A stretch of 61,441 bases of DNA, the filler included, from Hausera hauseri (Eukaryota): NCBI GenBank assembly GCA_046269625.1. It is 10 parts of 10 records of this genome, joined end to end, with 100 filler letters (N's around TTAATTAATTAA, not from the genome) between each part and the next. Parts side by side here need not be neighbours in the genome. Positions count along the whole stretch, not along the records: positions 1 to 5,990 come from JBJURY010157644.1; 9 more parts are not named here. One strand, 5' to 3'. The position numbers and the translations under genes are program-made. Below the pieces are notes generated by a model that was given only the letters and a program-made list of their open reading frames with translations, did not search any database and was not told where the DNA came from. Shown piece by piece: positions 1 through 15,679 of the stretch (positions are counted from its first letter, which is position 1; each line of letters starts with the position of its first letter).

Positions 1-101
1 CCGGGAAACAATACATAGATAAATCCGACATCAGTTCAAGAGCACGTGAAGATGTATCAGAGCATCATACACCCACGGTATTAATCTCTGGTCACCTTGG
101 A

Positions 102-1418
102 TTGAAATTCATAAAAAAGGAAATGATTTCATGTTGCGAAGTAGTGATGTTTACCACTAACTACGAAGCGTTCTTCGTCGCAGAAACGGAGATAAACGCA
201 AAAACATACAACTTGGAAACACAAGACATTCGAATCGAAGATTATCTGAAAAACCGAGATGATTTTTTCTATTATAAAGGACAAGTTGGAATAGCCGAAC
301 TATACCACAAAATGATAACGAACTATTGTAAACTGGATACGGAGATTATGAGGAAAAAGTCAGCTCTTATTTTTGCGAACCCTTAGTTAGTCTCACCGAT
401 TATTCCCATAAGAGAAGGAATTTTCGACCGAGTTACCGGTGAAGTTCTACTAACATATGAATGCGAGAAAAGACACGTACCAATTAATGTCAAGGAGAAA
501 CGATGAATACAAGAACTTCCTGTGATCTATCAGAATACTCCGCACTTAGCCATGCCCCTCACTAGAGTGTTTCTAGACACACAACCTACGATCTTAAAGG
601 ATTGCAAAGCAAGTTTGGGTGAACCAATGTTTAAGCGTAGTGAAAAAGATTGAGTTAGCTTACCCAATGGAGGTGTTACAATCATTCCTAAAAAACTAAC
701 TAAAACTAATTTAGCAAAGGGAATTACTGATGACAAGTTTCAAGATACATCTCAAAAAGGTATTTACAGGCCTAAAGAAATCGAAGCCTTTCGACAATTT
801 CTCGCTTTTCCACGACAGCGTACACACGAGTTTAACCGAGCCATGGCATCAGTAGTAGATGATACCCGATATCAGGCTAAATGGGAATCTTTATTCGGTG
901 TAGATCATTACCAGCGAGTAACCACAAAAATACTCTACAAAATATGGGAAAGATTTTTAATTTTTGGACAAGCTGCATCTGGATTCTTAGCGATTTATTT
1001 TTTGATACAGATAGTGAAGGCGGTAATTCAAGCGATTATAAATGGGTACGAAATATTTACTCTACCAGGATTTTCCTGCAAGATCTTAACCGCAATCATC
1101 ACAACATTCGGTAAAATGCTTGAAGCATACAAAGAAAATCGATGGAAAAATGACGTTGAACGCTATGTCGGCTATCATAATTATAAACGACGAGCAAGAC
1201 CTACATTTTTACTAAAACGCAAAGTTAAGAAATCAACAACACGAAGAAATGACTCCGATGATGACAAGCCTAAGGGAGGAGAAGCAATCCTCAAACAAAA
1301 TAGACATACCATGTATTCGGTAATCAAGGTACCCTTGCCCATCATGCCGCCAACGGCTCCAATATACAAAGATTACGACAGAACATCTATGGTGTCATAC
1401 AAATCGGATTTCTGTTGA
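102..1418 (+). pseudogene. Chuvirus (Jingchuvirales)-like fusion glycoprotein, C-terminal half with TM helix and cytoplasmic tail; in-frame stops
   Basis: Reading through stops in one frame gives FTTNY...GEVLLTYEC...R*IQELPVIY...P-LTRVF...C...PMF...*V...GIYRPKEIEAFRQFLAFP, followed by the hydrophobic segment FLIFGQAASGFLAIYFLIQIV. This matches the GEV-x-Y-x-C, C-x-QELPV and GIY...FP pattern of chuvirus-type G proteins. Confidence 0.75.
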
Positions 1419-1469
1419 AGACCTTTTAGCTATGAGGACCCTTACGAAAAAACAAAACAATACGGAGTA

Positions 1470-4400
1470 TTGAAGAAAATACAGATTACTAATCAACGAC
1501 TAACGGAAAATGACCGTAGGATATTGTACTGGAAGAGAATAGCTCGTAATATAGAGTCAAAATCGACAGTTTGGGGAACACAAGGAAGGAGCTCGTTCCA
1601 AAACCCAATAATACAAAAACCATTAATTAGAAACAATGCGCATAGTGTAGCAATTAACAACTTATACCCTAACGAAGAACTGAAACAGTTGACCGAGAAT
1701 ATCATTTCATCACCAGAAATAACGATAAACGGACACAAGATTTCTTCAATTATGCGACCAAAGGACGTGTCAAGTTGTTATGAAACAGTCATGGAAGGGA
1801 GACCCTTCACGAAAGTTACCAATGAAGATTGGGAAGTCTATGCCATAATCGACATCGGATCAGAGAAATTGTTTATTAAGTTAGAATCAATACCGCCGAC
1901 ACTACGAAAACAACTACAGCCAGCATCGTCGTCAGACCTAGGCAGCATAGGAGCCTTCGGGCAAGAATCCAAACCAAAATTTAAATGGAGTCCATTAGTT
2001 CAATTAATGGGTCAAATTCTTCGATATGAGTTCGCCGTAATGGACCAACTAACCGATGATGTAGTATTAGGTTGCAATATACTGAAACAATTACCCAATA
2101 TTGCAATAAACTTACAGACTGAAAAGTTACTAGAACTCGGACCAGTGAAAGGTATTAAGACAATGAAAGAGAGGAAACTAGGAGAAGTATGGATTTCCGT
2201 TGATGAAAATATTCCGCCCAGAACCGAAATGCTAATTTATGCCCAGATCCGAGAAGAGGACGAACAGCCGGTATATTTTGAGCCACAAGAAAATGTTAAT
2301 CCCAATATCATACTTAGTAACATTTTGACAAGAGTAACGACAGGAAGAGTACCAGTCAGATTAGTTAATAACGCACCAACTCCCGTAAAATTGTACGCCA
2401 ATACTACGTTGGGTCATACTTATAAGGTATGGGCAATAACAATCGAAGAAAAGCCATATAAGTATGTTGAGTTTCCACCTTACGTTGAAACTAAATTTTC
2501 ACCAGAAGCATATTGTCAATTTTACGAATTATTATGCAAATATAAGTCGATTATAGCCCAAAATGAAGAAGATATAGGCAGAGAAAAAACCTTAAGGTTA
2601 ACCATACCAATAAAAAAGAAACCTGGCTCCAACGACGAAATTGATTTGGAAGAGCAAAAGATGCCCAAATGGTATCCACCGCCTCATTCATTAAGGCCCG
2701 AAATAACAAAAGAAATAGAACGTATGTTGAAGGCTGACATAATACGACCAAGCTACCTATCTTGGTACTTGCTAATACTCATGATCAAGAAAAAGCGTAC
2801 CACTAAACATCGATTCTGTATAGATTACCGAGCTCTGAACACGCTTATGATGAAAGACTCATTCCCACTACCGTCGTAAAAGAAGCTCTATACAGATTAT
2901 CAGGAGTGAAATGGTTTACCACACTAGATTTACAATCCGGATACTGGCAAGTGCAAACTGAAGAAGACGATCGTTATAAAACAGCGTTCAAAACGCATGA
3001 CGGAGTCTATGAATTTAACGTCATGCCGTTCGGCATAACAACTGGCCCAGCTATCTTCACCAGAATGATGACTCTATGACGCATTCGCATATCTGGACGA
3101 TGTAATGATAGCATCAAGAACAGAAGAAGAACACCTAAAAGACATCGAAGATACTCTTATGCAATTGGAACAGGCATGATTAAAACGGAACCCAAAGAAA
3201 TGTAAATGGAAACAAAATGCGGTATCCTATCTTGGACATATAGTCGGGAAGGAGGGTCAAAACCAGATAAATCTCTACTAAATAATATATCGGATTGTAT
3301 ATAACCCCAAAATCAGAAAGAATTAAGACATTGGCTAGGCCTATGTGGGCTGTATGCCACTTATGTGCCAGACAATTCGAAAATAAATGCACCATTATAT
3401 CGGCTATTGAAAAAAGAAATCAAATGGAAATAACCCGCTGTGGAACAGAAAGCGTTCGATAAAATAAAGAAAATCCTAACAAGTGAACCAGTGTTGAGAT
3501 ACCCTGATTTCAATTTACCATTTATAATTAAAACAGACGCGAGTAAAGAGGGAATTGATTACGAATTGGCTCAGAAACGAGAGGACGAAGAATTGGAACA
3601 CCCAATTGCATATGGATGTCGATCGCTTAAGAAAGCTGAGAAAAACTATTCTGTCACTAAATTGGAGACACTAACTGTAAAGGAAGATTTAAGGCTCTTC
3701 AATGTTTATGTCTACGGAGAGAAAATCATTATAGTTACTGATCACAAGGCCGTTACAAGGTTAAAAGGACGGGCCAATAACCAGACATGTAGACTAAATC
3801 GGTGGATCGAGGAAATCTCCCGATGCAATATCGAATTTCAATATAAACCGGGAAGTAAACATATTGACGCAGATGCTCTATCAAGACTTAAGACAAAGAC
3901 AAGTACGATTACAACTATGAAGAAAGCCCAACTCGAGGAATTAGTAGAACGACAACGGGCCCTAACACTAAACAAAACAATTAAAATTTCTTCAGAACAA
4001 GCTAAAGACAAAGTCATCCAACAAATAGTCAAATTTGCCGAGCAAGATGAGGTACCAAATGGACGTCAGATAAAGAAACATTTACAAAGACACGGGCATA
4101 AATATTATGCATTGAATCAAGACAGTATTTTATATTACGAACGGAAGGGACGGAAACTGGTAGTTATTCCAAAGGGATTACGAACGGAAGTATTAATGGC
4201 CGAACACGATTCACATTTAGCTGGACACATGTCATGGAAGAAAACATTAGAAAAGATATTGAAAAAGTATTACTGGCCAAGTGTATATATCGATGTAAAA
4301 ATTGGGTGGACGCTTGTGAAGTCTGTGCGACAAAACAAAAGAAAGTGAAAAACTACATAGCAGAATTAAAACCGATTGACGTACCATACAGACCTATGCA

Positions 4401-5190
4401 GGCTATGTCTATGGATATAGTAGGACCTTTAACTACGACCCATAAAAATAACAAATACATTTTGACATGCGTGGACCGATTAACACATTTCGTTAAATTA
4501 ATTGCACTAACTGACCAGAAGGCAGAAACTTTAGCAGGCGCAGTAGTAAGGAAAGTTATTTGCAAAGGACCAAAAAGTCTGGGACGAATTTTTAGAAGGA
4601 ACGCAATTTGCTATAAATACTATTCCACATCCCGCCACAGGATTTACACCATTTTTTATGATGTATGGGCGCGAAGCGATATTACCCACGGACTTAGGGA
4701 TGACTCCGTATAACGCAAATCCAGAAGATTTAGAACCCAACTTCGCAGAAGTCTTGCAAATAAGGTTAAAAAATGTTGGGATATAGCGAAAAACCTCACT
4801 CTTGAGTATCAAGAGCAGTTTAAGAAACAATATGATAAGAAGGCCAAACCTCACGATTTAGAAAAAGAAAACTGGGTCTACGTGCACTATCCAGTCGCAA
4901 AGAAAGGTACGTTATTAAAACTTACTCGTACTGGACGAGGGCCTTACGAAGTTATTCGAACCACGCCAACTACTGTTTACATTAATAAAAACGGCAAAGA
5001 AGTAGTATTTATAAAAAGAGTTGTTAAAACAGAAATAAAACCAGAAAAACGTTACAATTTGCGATCTAGCTCGAATCAAGACAATAGGAAAACAAGAACA
5101 TCCTCTATGGTTAATAGGCCAATATCTTACGTACAGATAATATTAACATTATCATTATTCGCCTCTTATGTTCCCCAAACCCAAGCGTAA
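1470..5190 (+). mobile_element. pol: Degenerate Ty3/Gypsy pol: protease, dUTPase-like spacer, RT, RNase H, integrase
   Basis: Protease AIIDIGS; RT RFCIDYRALN...DSFPLP, LDLQSGYWQV, MPFG, YLDD; RNase H IKTDAS...AEKNYS...VTDHK...ADALSR; integrase H-x6-GH...C-x2-C, MDIVGP and GPY. Order PR-RT-RH-IN; several stops and frameshifts. Confidence 0.93.
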
Positions 5191-5990
5191 TGTGGGATGA
5201 TAGCGAATCTAGTTTAACAGATGTATATGGCATTAGCAAAAATGGAAGGCAAGCCAAAATTAAAGAGGAACAACAACACCTGGAAGGACGAAAAGACGTG
5301 GAAAATCTAAAAACAATGAAAGCCTATGACGCAGATTGGAAAAAGCCCTGTATTTGGTTTAAAACCAACAAAGCTACCAGAGAATATATGAAAATTCGTA
5401 TTAAGTTTACCGATCAAAATAGTGAAGGGATAAAAGATTGTGAGTTTGGATATTGAATTTATAGAAAATGTTGCGAACTAGATTTCGGCCGAACATACAG
5501 ATATACAATACTTATGTATTATTAGCCCTATGAAATCATCCGAGCGGACATACAACCTCAGATTGAAATAGTTATGCCCAAGCAATCTCTAACCGATGAC
5601 GTAAAATTATCCGACATAGTTCAAAGCACTGACCCTCAAATTAGATTATTATATGAAAATATAATTGAAGTTTCCAAGGATTTGGAACACGCATGTATCC
5701 AGATTAGAACCAAAACAAGACTAACCGAATCCTATCAGATCTGGGTCCAATTTATACCGTATGAAGAAACAAATCCGCCAGCAGAATACTGCGCTATTAG
5801 CCGATGGAACCCAAAGCCATGCTGTAAAATATCCAAAGGGTACAATTACGAAATACAATTCGACCTATATAAGGTCAGACCAAATCCGCCAAGTATATAC
5901 TTAAGAGGATATCGCTTAGGCAGACGAAATTGAAAGATCCCAATTAAAACGATGACAACGACTAGTACTACTGCAAAAATCGTCACGACG
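5107..5990 (+). pseudogene. Broken ORF(s) after integrase beginning with a signal-peptide-like segment; possible second env-like or accessory gene
   Basis: Integrase ends in RYNLRS, then MVNRPISYVQIILTLSLFASYVPQTQA (hydrophobic core, QA end), then Cys/Trp-containing fragments. No family recognised. Confidence 0.35.
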
Positions 5991-9434: not shown

Positions 9435-10545
9435 CGCTCCTTTAGTAATTGGGAACTTCTTGACCCCAGTAAAGTGACTGTAATGCTGATTTACCCTTTT
9501 TCTTCTGTACCCTGACTTTAGCGGTGCTCGTGGCCTTGGAAATGTTTATAATCATTAGTTTTCGCATATTCTCGCTCTCTTTTCTCTAATACATCTATTC
9601 CATGCGCGGATTCCTCTGATACACGGTGAATATGGGCATCTTCTTCCAACCAATATTTTAATTCGCTTATAACTTCTTCTTTACAGTAACTTCGCCGGTA
9701 CCTTTCCCATTGACTTATTAATGTCTCCGGTAACTTCTCTAGTATAATTTTATATAGTAGCCCACTATCAAGGTCATTCTCTTTGTTTAGGTTTCTAAGT
9801 CGCACAACAACGGCTTCCAATAATGATACTAAGTTGTCTATCTGCTTGACATTATTCAGCTTTACTTTCTCGAACTTTCGAATTTCATCTATCAACGCAG
9901 CGAAATTTCTTTGCTTTCCACCATAACACCTTTCGAGTTTCTGCAGTACTGTTTCGTACGATGTTTCGCTGATCCCAAAATTTGCCACTAACTTCTTTGC
10001 TTCACCACTAAGACAAACCTCTAATTTTATCTGCTTTTCTACTGCTGATACTGGAGTTCGATGTACACAAACTTCAAACGTTTGCCTCCATTTTTCGTAA
10101 TCAGCTACGTGTCCACTAAATTTTGGCAATTCTACACTACTAAAGCGAGGACACAAATTATCTGTAACTGAAGTCTCCGTGGTTTTTTGTCGACTTCTTT
10201 CCTGTTCGCTCCGATTAGCGGCTATACACCGTAATCCTGCCACTGCATCGGCATTTAGTTGACTTAGGACCTCTCTAGTTCGTCATTTCTGTTTTGTAGT
10301 TTCGCCATGATTTGGAGCTCCAATATTTCCGACACTGTTTGTTCATACGTGTCACAAAATTCGTCGTAGGTCTTTCGAAGTTCTTCCCCTGAATTATCCA
10401 CGTATAATTTCCCGTGCATATTTTCTAATTGTGACTTCAATTTGTCCTTCATCAGAAATCTCGTCTCGAATTCTTTTGTTAATCGCTTTGTGTTTTCTGA
10501 ACTAGCCTTAAGTTTTTTCTCATAATTTTTGCTGGAGAGTTTGCT

Positions 10546-10767
10546 TCCTCCTTTAAGACTAAGGACTAGATGCACAGTAGCTCCATGCGTGAGATTCTCC
10601 ACGTCTTCATCGGTCATTATTCTCCTTTCTCGATAGAATAACCTCAGTAAATCCGCTGGTATTTTCGATTTTATTTTTATTTCGGTAAGCAACTCGTTTA
10701 AAGATTTGACTTTCTCTAAGTTTATTTCCATTAACGTACCTTCTCTTAATTTTATAAATAGCTGTTT
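10546..10767 (-). other. Ubiquitin-like domain at the N-terminus of BEL/Pao Gag
   Basis: The 74 aa KQLFIK...IPADLLRLFY...ATVHLVLSLKGG aligns colinearly with ubiquitin MQIFVK...IPPDQQRLIF...STLHLVLRLRGG. Confidence 0.88.
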
Positions 10768-11769
10768 AAGATTTCTATTTGTTGTCGTAGTTCCCTCAAA
10801 TTTCTCTGACAATTTGGGAAGCGTGATTTAAATTTTCTATCTTCTTGATTATGCCCTCTTCTCCTAGCCTATATCATTCTTTTCCTCCTTATGTTCTTTT
10901 GAATAACGTATGTCTCTTCTTCTCATTATTTTATTATTTAGCCGGGTTCCTTCTAGATCCATGGCCACTATACATTAAATCGAAAGGGACTCTGCACCAG
11001 ACGTCCAAGGCAGCATCATCAACACGGAACTCAAACTATTTTCCCATTTGTTTACTCTTATTTGGCTAGCTGGGTTCACGGTTTGGTTTTTGCCGCAAAC
11101 AAATGAAAAAACTTTAAACCATTCAAAGAGGAAGATCCGAACACAAGGAAGGTGGAAGGATACCTCGAAAGAACAAAGAGCCGTGATCGCTACTTGCATA
11201 TCAGGGTGCAGAGCAGCAACCACGCTCTGCTACCATATGATGATGAATCTATATAGATATTATTTCGCGTAAGTACCTCAAGATCGAATATATCCCCTGT
11301 TAAGTAAATCTTTCTTTCCATGACACCATTATTCCTGTCAGATCTCGAGGTGCCATTGATGATTTCCGCGAACTCACATATCCCTAAACCCATCTCGATT
11401 CCCATAAGGCCCAATTCCCAGGTCCGTTTCTCTTTTATTACCCCTTTTATTTTCGACTTTGATCCCACAAAATACGATCCATAAAGTCGATTGAATTCCC
11501 CAAAAGTGTTTATCATTATATAAAAATATAAAAAAACATTTAATTGCATATAAAAAAGACATTTACGTTACTTTTTGCACTATACATGGCCATTTTTATC
11601 GGAGTGCCCCTCTCCGGGGAAATATATCCACCTTTAAAAACTAAATTCCATACAAGCACACCGATTTTATCAATCATTCTGACAACAGAGCCCAGTCTGA
11701 CATTCAGTAACCCAGAATAACAATAACGAGAACTAACAATAATATTTAAATAACACTGGAATACCTTCA

Positions 11770-14179: not shown

Positions 14180-15450
14180 TTATGGACAAGATGGGCTCAG
14201 ATTCACAAAGAAACTATAAACACTTATTTTCCCACAGTCACGTGACACCGTTCTTTCCGATAGTTGAATTATCCTTGATGTCAAAGACTTCTCTAAGCAC
14301 GTACAAACTAGATTCTTGCTTCCAGTCAAGTCCAACTGATTCAAGTTTTGGAGCGAAGTTAGGGTCAGTGGCAGACGAGTTATTTTTGTACTTTCCATAT
14401 TTAGAATGATAACACGGGACAGACCTTGGAAAGCACGAGCTGAAATTGTAACAATTGGGTTATTATTTAAATTTATGGATGTTAAATTAGAATCCAATGG
14501 GAAACTGTCATTTCTTATTTCTGTTATAAGATTATATCCCAGATCAAGGTCTCGTATCCACGGAGGAAAATCTGCTGCATGGATAACTTTTGATAACATT
14601 AGAAGTCAGCAGCATTGCTGAAATGACTGAGATGTTGAAATAAATATGGGGGATGGACGGAAGCAGGTTGTTGCTGAGGTCCAAAAAGTCCAAACCAGGA
14701 GGTAGACCTCCGGAATAAGGGTCAGAAATTCGATTGTGCGACAGACTGATGCTTCCAATCTTCGTCAGAAATGATACATTTGGAATTGAGGTCAAATGGT
14801 TGCCGACTAGATCAATACTTGTCAAGGTCGTTTCATAGGGACGCAAATTGTTGCTTAGGGCCCGCGCGTCGTAGAGGCTGTTGTTAGTTAGCGTTAATGA
14901 GTACAGCTGATTGGACACGGGTAACCAAGTTATATTAGAGATTCTGTCGTTCAGAAACTGAACATACTGAAGCACGCGAAGATCAGTTACTGCCTTTGGG
15001 ATTTCCGTTAGTCTACAACTGATTAGATTCAAGCCTTTCAACGTACCAGACATGGCAACAAAAGCGTTGTCTGGAATAAACGAAATCGCACTTTCTGCTA
15101 TATTTAGCTCAGAAAGATGAGTTAAATACCGAGTCCAGATTGGCCACGAAGTTAGACCAACAGCTTCTAACACAATGCTGTCTAGGGTTGAACCAAGGTG
15201 TTCCATGACCTTGTCATTCCAGTCGCTAATGTTGGTGTTGTAAATATTTAAATACATGAGAGCATTTAAGTGAAGAAAAGCATCTGGAATCCTGGTCATC
15301 AAGGCGAACGAGAACATAAGACTTGTCAAAGATGTAGAGGATCCATCAAAAGCAGCGCTGTCTATGTCTTTTATTGGATTATTCATGAGGCTTAATCCTG
15401 TCATGTTTAACGGAAGACTCCCAGCTGGTATAGAAGAGATCTTGTTGTTC
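14180..15450 (-). pseudogene. Leucine-rich-repeat protein, last exon, with one frameshift near 14590
   Basis: Repeated LxxLxLxxNxI/L units and a C-terminal LRR cap (NLVCTC...C...CP). A candidate acceptor ccacag lies at about 15451-15456. Resembles gastropod multi-LRR genes. Confidence 0.8.
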
Positions 15451-15679
15451 TGTGGACGTTAATTATTAAATTACTTAAATTTTAAGTTAATTAATTCTTG
15501 GATTACATGTTAGATGTTAAATTATAAGAAAAGGAGTAAAAGATGACGCTTCAGGGTATGCCATAGGCAATCCCAGTTTCGCCAAGTCCCCTGGATTTGA
15601 TACTCCCTGTTCACAGCTCCTTCACATGTGAGGATAAATATAGTGGCCGTCTCCGTTTCACCTAATTGACAAGTGGATC

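What the first reader, a model, noticed from the sequence alone, without database searches (positions are those of the whole stretch)
102..2110. Chuvirus-like glycoprotein sits upstream of and in frame with the protease, with no recognisable gag between them
Seen: ORFs 102-386, 843-1418 and 1470-2879 share one frame, broken only by point stops (two at expected Cys/Trp codons). The order is G ectodomain, TM, basic tail, protease, RT. Known: env genes normally lie 3' of pol, and chuviral G captures are described mainly from BEL/Pao elements. Inference: an env-pol (or gag-env-pol) polyprotein order in a Gypsy element, which raises a membrane-topology question because Pol would hang on the cytoplasmic side of the glycoprotein.
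Basis: partly seen in the sequence, partly recalled or inferred. Interest (0 to 1): 0.72.

Follow-up and report, generated by a model that had tools for sequence, protein, structure and literature searches.

The report
Retrotransposon polyprotein with two membrane proteins
This is a decayed copy of a large virus-like jumping gene, probably from a flatworm, that encodes its envelope protein between capsid and enzymes in one reading frame (an order already in print) and also carries after the integrase a second membrane protein, predicted to have fibronectin-like domains, that likely serves as a separate cell-attachment protein.

Summary
Observation confirmed; the gene order is known. Window 3-2879 reads glycoprotein (PF24664, E 1e-38), TM, tail, protease, RT in one frame. 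Its four stops are nearly private (0/24, 1/25, 2/25, 1/27 other copies). About 40 other contigs share the junction and one reads 996 aa through it unbroken, so it is no misassembly. Other copies put LTR, PBS, gag and a ~1,200-aa insert upstream in the same frame. This is the GAG-ENV-POL Ty3/gypsy type of Chary & Hayashi (nematodes, bryozoans, flatworms); this scan noted it twice before in other genomes. The host is probably a flatworm. What I did not find in print: integrase runs in frame into a second signal peptide, three predicted FN3-like beta-sandwiches, a stalk and a TM anchor (window 5125-5990). It is under purifying selection (dN/dS 0.19-0.24). All 9 public relatives that extend past integrase have the second signal segment; 8 have the full layout. 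Likely mechanism: one ~4,000-aa polyprotein crosses the ER membrane four times, with Pol in a cytosolic loop between a gB-type fusogen and a probable attachment protein. Topology and function are inferred, not tested.

The parts
3..953 (+). C-terminal half of a chuvirus-like (HSV/gB-type) glycoprotein ectodomain; three point stops; N-terminal half lies off the contig
   Evidence: PF24664 E 1.2e-38; copy L020 holds signal peptide plus N-half, E 1.6e-31; dN/dS 0.15
954..1046 (+). TM1, predicted membrane anchor of the glycoprotein
   Evidence: hydropathy peak, same segment in the relatives
1047..1796 (+). basic tail and spacer joining G to protease in frame; one point stop at 1416-1418; no gag features
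   Evidence: L006 and L017 read through without a stop; dN/dS 0.24
1797..2093 (+). aspartyl protease (active-site motif at 1845-1862, degenerate in this copy)
   Evidence: RVP E 1e-4 at residues 306-404 of L017, placed by offset
2094..3433 (+). PR-RT linker and reverse transcriptase; private frame shift near 2870 and further lesions; YLDD at 3090-3101
   Evidence: RVT_1 E 1e-37 in L017; best PDB match Ty3 RT, E 2e-76
3443..3820 (+). RNase H (Ty3/gypsy type)
   Evidence: PF17919 E 6e-29, PF17917 E 8e-27
4166..4953 (+). integrase: H2C2 finger, core with a ~180-bp deletion at ~4564, GPY motif at 4939-4953; several frames in this copy
   Evidence: PF17921 E 4e-12, rve E 5e-5; gap against other copies
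5125..5187 (+). SP2: second signal-peptide-like segment, in frame with the integrase C-terminus
   Evidence: ORF 4714-5190; read-through in 9 copies
5188..5990 (+). ectodomain of the second membrane protein (first two of three predicted FN3-like domains, broken); third domain, stalk and TM2 lie off the contig
   Evidence: alignment A2; model and fold searches on copy L046; dN/dS 0.19

Best explanation
The window is an internal piece of a decayed, multi-copy Ty3/gypsy LTR element (about 16 kb by overlap offsets) whose family reads gag, a long insert, a gB-type envelope, protease, RT, RNase H, integrase and a second membrane protein in one frame, and the product is likely one ~4,000-aa polyprotein that crosses the ER membrane four times. 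Shown: gene order, single frame, LTR/PBS/PPT, selection on every part, and the same layout in intact public relatives. Inferred: Gag and the insert stay cytosolic; an internal signal (SP1) sends G into the lumen; TM1 stops transfer, so tail-PR-RT-RH-IN forms a cytosolic loop; SP2 sends the FN3-like ectodomain into the lumen; TM2 anchors it. Signal peptidase would cut after SP1 and SP2, as in flavi- and alphavirus polyproteins (established knowledge, recalled). That leaves Gag and Pol membrane-tethered until the element's protease frees them, which would gather capsid, enzymes and both surface proteins at one membrane for budding. Most speculative step: the FN3-like protein is the attachment (receptor or adhesion) partner of the class III fusogen.
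For: Frame: no shared stop or shift from gag to RT. All four major frame breaks of reference copy L025 are compensated in 11/11, 11/11, 7/7 and 16/16 other copies, and its in-frame stops are shared by 1/11, 0/9 and 1/14; one region (2880-3060) shows mixed indels. Unbroken ORFs span insert-SP1-G (6 of 15 copies), TM-PR (2 of 19), PR-RT (2 of 17), RH-IN (4 of 11) and IN-SP2 (9 of 17 motif hits, some spurious). Single-ORF public relatives of 2.3-4.1 kaa have G before PR. Four hydrophobic segments lie in the same order in P0003, 5, 7, 8, 10, 11 and 54, and SP1 and SP2 have a basic or neutral N-side. N-glycosylation sequons in the second ectodomain: 46 seen against 26 expected from composition, 8 proteins. 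Two independent low-confidence models each give three beta-sandwiches whose top Foldseek hits are FN3 arrays, E 3e-7 and 3e-8; VIA Z 8.4, rmsd 2.5 A over 82 residues to fibronectin EDB. An HMM built from relatives' units scores this family's third domain 19.8 bits against a shuffle maximum of 6.7. dN/dS is 0.19-0.24 in the second protein and 0.10-0.15 in RT, PR and G. G proteins of this layout form one clade apart from 45 stand-alone Gs (SH-aLRT 99, quick tree), with subgroups matching the RT tree.
Against: No RNA or protein data. Model pLDDT is only 51 and 47; VIA Z for this family's own domains is 7.0-7.9, inside the range the tool calls common, with cytokine-receptor and other Ig-like sandwiches tied. 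Pfam finds no fn3 match in any of 17 rows, and the A2-versus-P0020 profile match is weak (probability 1%, E 0.05). P0062 has SP2 but its tail does not match the unit HMM. Sequons are also above expectation in Pol (110 vs 82) and below it in G (15 vs 26), and charge bias around TM1 is not clear-cut, so that test is not clean. TM1 hydropathy is modest (1.8) and an amphipathic stretch follows it, so a hairpin is possible. A single polyprotein gives equal amounts of Gag, Env and Pol, which a capsid does not need; how Gag excess is made is unexplained. This family sits on long branches in both trees.
Confidence: 0.62

Rival explanations
1. Same polyprotein and topology, but the FN3-like membrane protein is not for entry: it stays on the host cell as a decoy receptor, superinfection block, adhesion or immune modulator.
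For: The fold resembles cytokine-receptor and adhesion ectodomains. The element carries other host-manipulation cargo such as a C3HC4 RING ORF. Stand-alone gB-type env genes elsewhere appear to do without such a partner (PMC13524379, sections read mention none).
Against: It is made in fixed step with the fusogen and Pol, is kept across RT divergence of 42-47% identity, and its first domain varies between subfamilies (37% identity in L008), as attachment proteins often do (inference; decoys vary too).
Confidence: 0.22
2. The single frame is real DNA architecture, but the proteins are made from spliced or internally started mRNAs (Gag, Gag-Pol skipping env, Env alone), so the four-pass polyprotein is minor or absent.
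For: It would solve the stoichiometry problem; spliced env mRNAs are usual in retroviruses and insect errantiviruses (recalled).
Against: No shared stop after gag, after the G tail or after integrase in any copy set or in intact relatives; separate mRNAs would normally let such stops arise. SP1 and SP2 are internal.
Confidence: 0.14
3. The G-protease junction is a deletion between tandem copies or a misassembly.
For: The assembly is fragmented and mixed; tandem copies exist (L045).
Against: TM-to-protease spacing is 266-301 codons in all 19 copies tested; copies are 80-86% identical, so not one collapsed locus. In tandem copy L045 the LTR and gag follow the 3' accessory region, not G. Gag lies upstream of G in copies and in intact public proteins.
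Confidence: 0.02

Closest known systems
GAG-ENV-POL errantiviruses with HSV/gB-type ENV (Chary & Hayashi, eLife 2026, PMC13524379), esp. Platyhelminthes: Schmidtea Smed_errantivirus_1-6, Macrostomum Mlig_2, Prostheceraeus Pcro_1-2
   Same: Ty3/gypsy pol, gB/chuvirus-like env, env between gag and pol, probable flatworm host. Domain-I motifs of the six Smed Gs match this clade's public proteins at 8-11 of 12 residues.
   Different: The text I saw (abstract, section 5 part 1, section 6 part 1, sections 8 and 22, word searches, rows of supplements 1 and 2) has 0 hits for 'fibronectin', 'polyprotein', 'accessory' or 'fused' and describes no post-integrase membrane protein or topology. Their ORF files on GitHub and the figures were not seen.
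Nematode ERVs of Sacco et al. 2022 (J Gen Virol 103:1739; not held; seen only as cited in PMC13524379, otherwise recalled)
   Same: Continuous gag-env-pro-pol frame in a metavirus with an RNA-virus-like glycoprotein (recalled).
   Different: Host here is probably a flatworm; as I recall, their extra ORFs are a small protein or a helicase, not an in-frame FN3-like membrane protein. Not checked against the text.
Anakin BEL/Pao elements with chuviral G (Dezordi et al.; PMC7642597 search listing, PMC10084718 passages)
   Same: Glycoprotein of the same Pfam family.
   Different: BEL/Pao backbone; this element has Ty3/gypsy RT, RNase H and integrase, and its G falls outside the stand-alone G groups sampled (unnamed rows).
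Flavivirus, alphavirus and hepacivirus polyproteins (recalled; works-like only)
   Same: Internal signal sequences and stop-transfer anchors alternate cytosolic and lumenal parts of one polyprotein.
   Different: No homology claimed; here the cytosolic loop is a retroelement Pol.

Membership tests
Ty3/gypsy (Metaviridae) | LTRs with TG...CA ends at both ends of the element | tested here: met
   5' and 3' contigs share an LTR of about 720-760 bp, TGT...ACA; U3 poorly conserved. No single contig holds both LTRs.
Ty3/gypsy (Metaviridae) | PBS after the 5' LTR and PPT before the 3' LTR | tested here: met
   TGGCGACC-type PBS 2 nt after the LTR; GGGAG-rich tract before the 3' LTR; 464 exact hits of a PBS 15-mer, 0 for the reversed control. 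Matching tRNA not found in 10 loci.
Ty3/gypsy (Metaviridae) | PR-RT-RH-IN order with Ty3-type RT, RNase H and H2C2/GPY integrase | tested here: met
   (Ty3 RT E 2e-76, against 4e-30 for MLV)
Ty3/gypsy (Metaviridae) | Gag with capsid and CCHC knuckle | tested here: met
   zf-CCHC E 3e-6; capsid part matches relatives' Gag at up to E 7e-19 and P0006 (weak Ty3_capsid hit) at 1e-12; no direct Pfam capsid hit
Ty3/gypsy (Metaviridae) | Target-site duplication | not tested
   no contig spans a whole element
GAG-ENV-POL HSV/gB errantiviruses | gag, env, pol in that order | tested here: met
GAG-ENV-POL HSV/gB errantiviruses | env of chuvirus/gB type between a signal peptide and a TM | tested here: met
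   PF24664 over cut-off in both halves; SP1 and TM1
GAG-ENV-POL HSV/gB errantiviruses | class III five-domain fold and cysteine-bridge type | not tested
   both fold jobs went to the second protein; PDB sequence search with G gave 0 hits
GAG-ENV-POL HSV/gB errantiviruses | placement among the published elements in the RT tree | not testable with these tools
   their RT sequences are not held; only G motif likeness was tested
GAG-ENV-POL HSV/gB errantiviruses | host in Nematoda, Bryozoa or Platyhelminthes | tested here: inconclusive
   mixed assembly with at least 7 mitochondrial types; one has the flatworm/echinoderm code and degraded copies in the assembly; Hox genes look spiralian (signatures recalled)
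Nematode ERVs (Sacco 2022) | continuous gag-env-pro-pol ORF (definition recalled) | tested here: met
Nematode ERVs (Sacco 2022) | chromadorean nematode host | tested here: inconclusive
   no cuticle-collagen hit, but the control rang nowhere; other markers point away from nematodes
Anakin (BEL/Pao with chuviral G) | BEL/Pao backbone | tested here: not met
   Ty3-type RT/RH/IN; no DUF1759 or Peptidase_A17 hit, whereas DUF1759 is found in the BEL element of the next stretch
FN3 domain superfamily (second protein) | seven-strand beta-sandwich of about 90 aa in tandem | tested here: met
   two low-confidence models; Foldseek top hits all FN3 arrays; VIA Z 7.0-9.3
FN3 domain superfamily (second protein) | sequence match to Pfam fn3 | tested here: inconclusive
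   no match in 17 rows or in whole relatives

The most novel reading that the evidence does not exclude
A lineage of flatworm-type Ty3/gypsy elements encodes a two-component entry machine, a class III gB-like fusogen plus a separate FN3-array attachment protein, on either side of Pol in one four-pass polyprotein: a retroelement built like a flavivirus polyprotein with a herpes-like split of binding and fusion.
Probability: 0.35. Interest if true: 0.78.

Novelty: new variant of a known kind. Interest (0 to 1): 0.52.

Why it matters
The added anatomy matters in two ways. First, SP2 after integrase is best read as a re-entry signal, which fits Pol being a cytosolic loop and makes the open topology question of gag-env-pol elements testable. 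Second, how gB-type retroelement envelopes find a cell is unknown; herpes gB needs partner proteins (recalled). A conserved, selected, FN3-like type I membrane protein in the same polyprotein is a concrete candidate for that partner, and related multi-copy elements are listed for the laboratory planarian Schmidtea mediterranea (45 and 215 copies for two of them), where it can be looked for.

Tried and rejected
Tandem-deletion or misassembly: rejected. Programmed read-through or frame shift between gag, env and pol: no shared lesion. A very short 27-bp LTR after the G-rich tract near the LTR end: rejected, since the true PPT and TGT start lie ~620 bp further 5'. BEL/Pao identity: rejected. ESM Atlas gave no result for the second protein, so that look-alike search is open. 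PDB sequence search with G: 0 hits. Pfam on the insert and on most of the 3' accessory ORF: nothing over cut-off apart from RING. Primer tRNA not found. Arthropod-cuticle and nematode-collagen searches were uninformative. Literature: four searches joining retrotransposon or gypsy terms with 'fibronectin type III' or topology terms gave 0, 23 (only PMC13524379 relevant among the 15 listed), 0 and 0 papers; 'fibronectin' is absent from PMC13524379, its preprint and PMC5408684; this scan's notes gave nothing. Sacco 2022 is not held, and figures, bioRxiv supplements and the authors' GitHub ORF files could not be seen; any of these may mention the post-integrase protein. The G tree is the quick tree (careful search unfinished) on 45 of 64 stand-alone proteins.
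Full report
1. Observation. Window 1-5990 is the whole of contig G000:C157644. Frame +3 from 3 to 2879 has four internal stops, left as X. Residues 25-383 match PF24664, the Monjiviricetes (chuvirus-type) fusion glycoprotein, at E 1.2e-38. A hydrophobic anchor at 954-1046, a basic tail, a protease and the start of RT follow in the same frame. RNase H and integrase lie further on, in other frames because of lesions. No capsid or knuckle lies between anchor and protease.

2. Not an artefact. A search of the genome scored 40 of 6,077 candidates and gave 47 matches, most at 80-87% identity, many spanning the junction. In 28 other copies the window's four stops are shared by 0/24, 1/25, 2/25 and 1/27; no other stop is shared by more than 4 copies, and the only near-universal difference is the window's own frame shift near 2870. 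TM-to-protease spacing is 266-301 codons in 19 of 19 copies tested, and 2 read through with no stop. Copy L017 has one 996-aa ORF from the G C-terminus through TM, protease, RT and RNase H. A PBS 15-mer occurs 464 times exactly (control 0), so the family is large.

3. What lies upstream. Contigs that reach further 5' (L025/L031, L011, L012, L042 and others) show an LTR of about 720-760 bp, a PBS, a leader of about 310 nt, a Gag with capsid-like region and CCHC knuckle, an insert of roughly 1,200 aa, and then a signal segment followed by the start of G. The capsid region matches the Gag of relatives at up to E 7e-19. The frame breaks in reference copy L025 are private (11/11, 11/11, 7/7, 16/16 other copies compensate; one region has mixed indels), and its in-frame stops are shared by 1/11, 0/9 and 1/14. 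Gag begins about 5.5 kb before window base 1. So the order is gag-insert-env-pol in one frame.

4. Integrase continues in frame into a second signal-like segment at 5125-5187 (unbroken in 9 copies). In copy L046 this is followed by about 380 aa of ectodomain with a Thr-rich linker, a TM and a short basic tail. AlphaFold on 17 rows from this genome (pLDDT 51) gives three beta-sandwiches; Foldseek's best PDB hits are fibronectin, contactin and gp130 FN3 arrays (E 3e-7), and VIA gives Z 7.0-7.9, which is middling. After its stop come a separate accessory ORF ending in a C3HC4 RING (E 3e-8 in L046), a PPT and the 3' LTR. By overlap offsets, not assembly, the element is about 16 kb and the main frame about 4,070 codons.

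5. Relatives. Database searches returned single-ORF proteins with G ahead of protease: P0003-P0011 and P0054, 56, 57, 62, 63, 67, 68, 70. Nine extend well past integrase, and all 9 have the second signal segment. Eight have ectodomain plus a clear TM; P0062 has a different tail. P0007/P0008 and P0009/P0010 are close pairs, so this is about seven lineages. A profile from relatives' repeat units alone scores this family's third domain at 19.8 bits (shuffle maximum 6.7 of about 300) and does not score G or integrase controls. An independent model of P0010's ectodomain (3 rows, pLDDT 47, third domain 64-83) again hits FN3 arrays (E 3e-8; Z 8.4, rmsd 2.5 A, 82 residues). RT identity between this family and the relatives is 41-47%, so the layout is old. 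G proteins of this layout group together against 45 stand-alone Gs (SH-aLRT 99, quick tree), and subgroups agree with the RT tree; this family is a long branch in both.

6. Selection. Pairwise dN/dS among copies is 0.14 (capsid), 0.18-0.21 (insert), 0.13-0.15 (G), 0.24 (TM and tail), 0.10-0.15 (PR, RT, RH-IN), 0.19-0.24 (second protein) and 0.12 (3' ORF), with dS about 0.5-0.7 in the main frame (pairs are not independent). The family diversified while both membrane proteins were being maintained. All copies seen are now broken.

7. Host. The assembly is mixed: at least seven mitochondrial types, which by recalled likeness include two bivalve-like, one fish and several arthropod-like. One 14-kb mitochondrial contig reads AAA as Asn at 2 of 2 invariant sites (flatworm/echinoderm code) and has degraded copies at 87-89% identity elsewhere in the assembly. 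Hox genes carry Lox5, Lox2/4 and Post2-like signatures (recalled). A flatworm host is probable, not shown. Earlier notes on this genome said the same and prompted the check.

8. Mechanism. See Best explanation. Shown: order, frame, conservation, selection. Inferred: four membrane crossings, signal-peptidase cuts after SP1 and SP2, Pol as a cytosolic loop released by the protease. Speculative: attachment role of the FN3-like protein. Unexplained: how Gag excess is obtained, and what the insert does.

9. Known versus new. Chary & Hayashi (PMC13524379; abstract, section 5 part 1, section 6 part 1, sections 8 and 22, passages, and rows of supplements 1 and 2 read) report GAG-ENV-POL Ty3/gypsy elements with HSV/gB env in Nematoda, Bryozoa and Platyhelminthes, and cite Sacco et al. 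2022 (not held; recalled as a continuous gag-env-pro-pol ORF). Motifs of the Schmidtea Gs match this clade. The order is therefore known. The post-integrase FN3-like membrane protein was not found in the searches listed under Tried and rejected, but the library is partial and key files were unseen.

10. Verdict. A real feature and a new variant of a known kind. Interest 0.52: low for the order itself, raised by the conserved second membrane protein.

Noticed in passing
L045 (G000:C277841) 1-1540: Tandem arrangement: 3' accessory region, PPT, one LTR, PBS and gag of the next copy.
   Followed up: partly
L008:4982-5563, L004:1-363: A subfamily carries a much diverged first domain of the second membrane protein (37% identity in L008) while SP2 and integrase stay alike: possible domain exchange or fast evolution.
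   Followed up: no
L046:938-3452 (-), L043:5635-7860: Separate 3' accessory ORF of about 800 aa ending in a C3HC4 RING, under purifying selection (dN/dS 0.12); no other Pfam match.
   Followed up: partly
L034-L045 LTRs: U3 is AT-rich and barely alignable between copies, while a TATA box, a short palindromic motif and the last ~310 bp are conserved.
   Followed up: no
L025:3204-4637 (-), residues ~150-290: Part of the gag-env insert is shared with relatives (E 2e-7 to P0011); the insert of P0003 has a weak ubiquitin-like hit (E 4e-5).
   Followed up: partly
P0003, P0004, P0006, P0007-P0011: Relatives carry two to four aspartyl-protease-like domains, some after integrase, plus ankyrin repeats (P0003, P0006) and a weak Bcl-2-like hit just before SP1 (P0006).
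   Followed up: no
L044 ~2608: Copy with an internal deletion of about 2 kb joining the G tail region to RNase H.
   Followed up: no
window 10264-10827 (-): BEL/Pao element with a ubiquitin-like domain (E 1e-4, under cut-off) just ahead of its DUF1759 Gag.
   Followed up: no
window 14547-15458 (-): Leucine-rich-repeat ORF (LRR_8 E 6e-18) in another stretch of the pack.
   Followed up: no
L098 (G000:C273997), L099 (G000:C650963): GC-rich, bacterial-looking cox1 pieces inside contigs with AT-rich flanks: chimeric contigs or inserted DNA.
   Followed up: no
L053-L059, L096-L100: The assembly holds at least seven different animal mitochondrial types, so host calls for any element in it need care.
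   Followed up: partly
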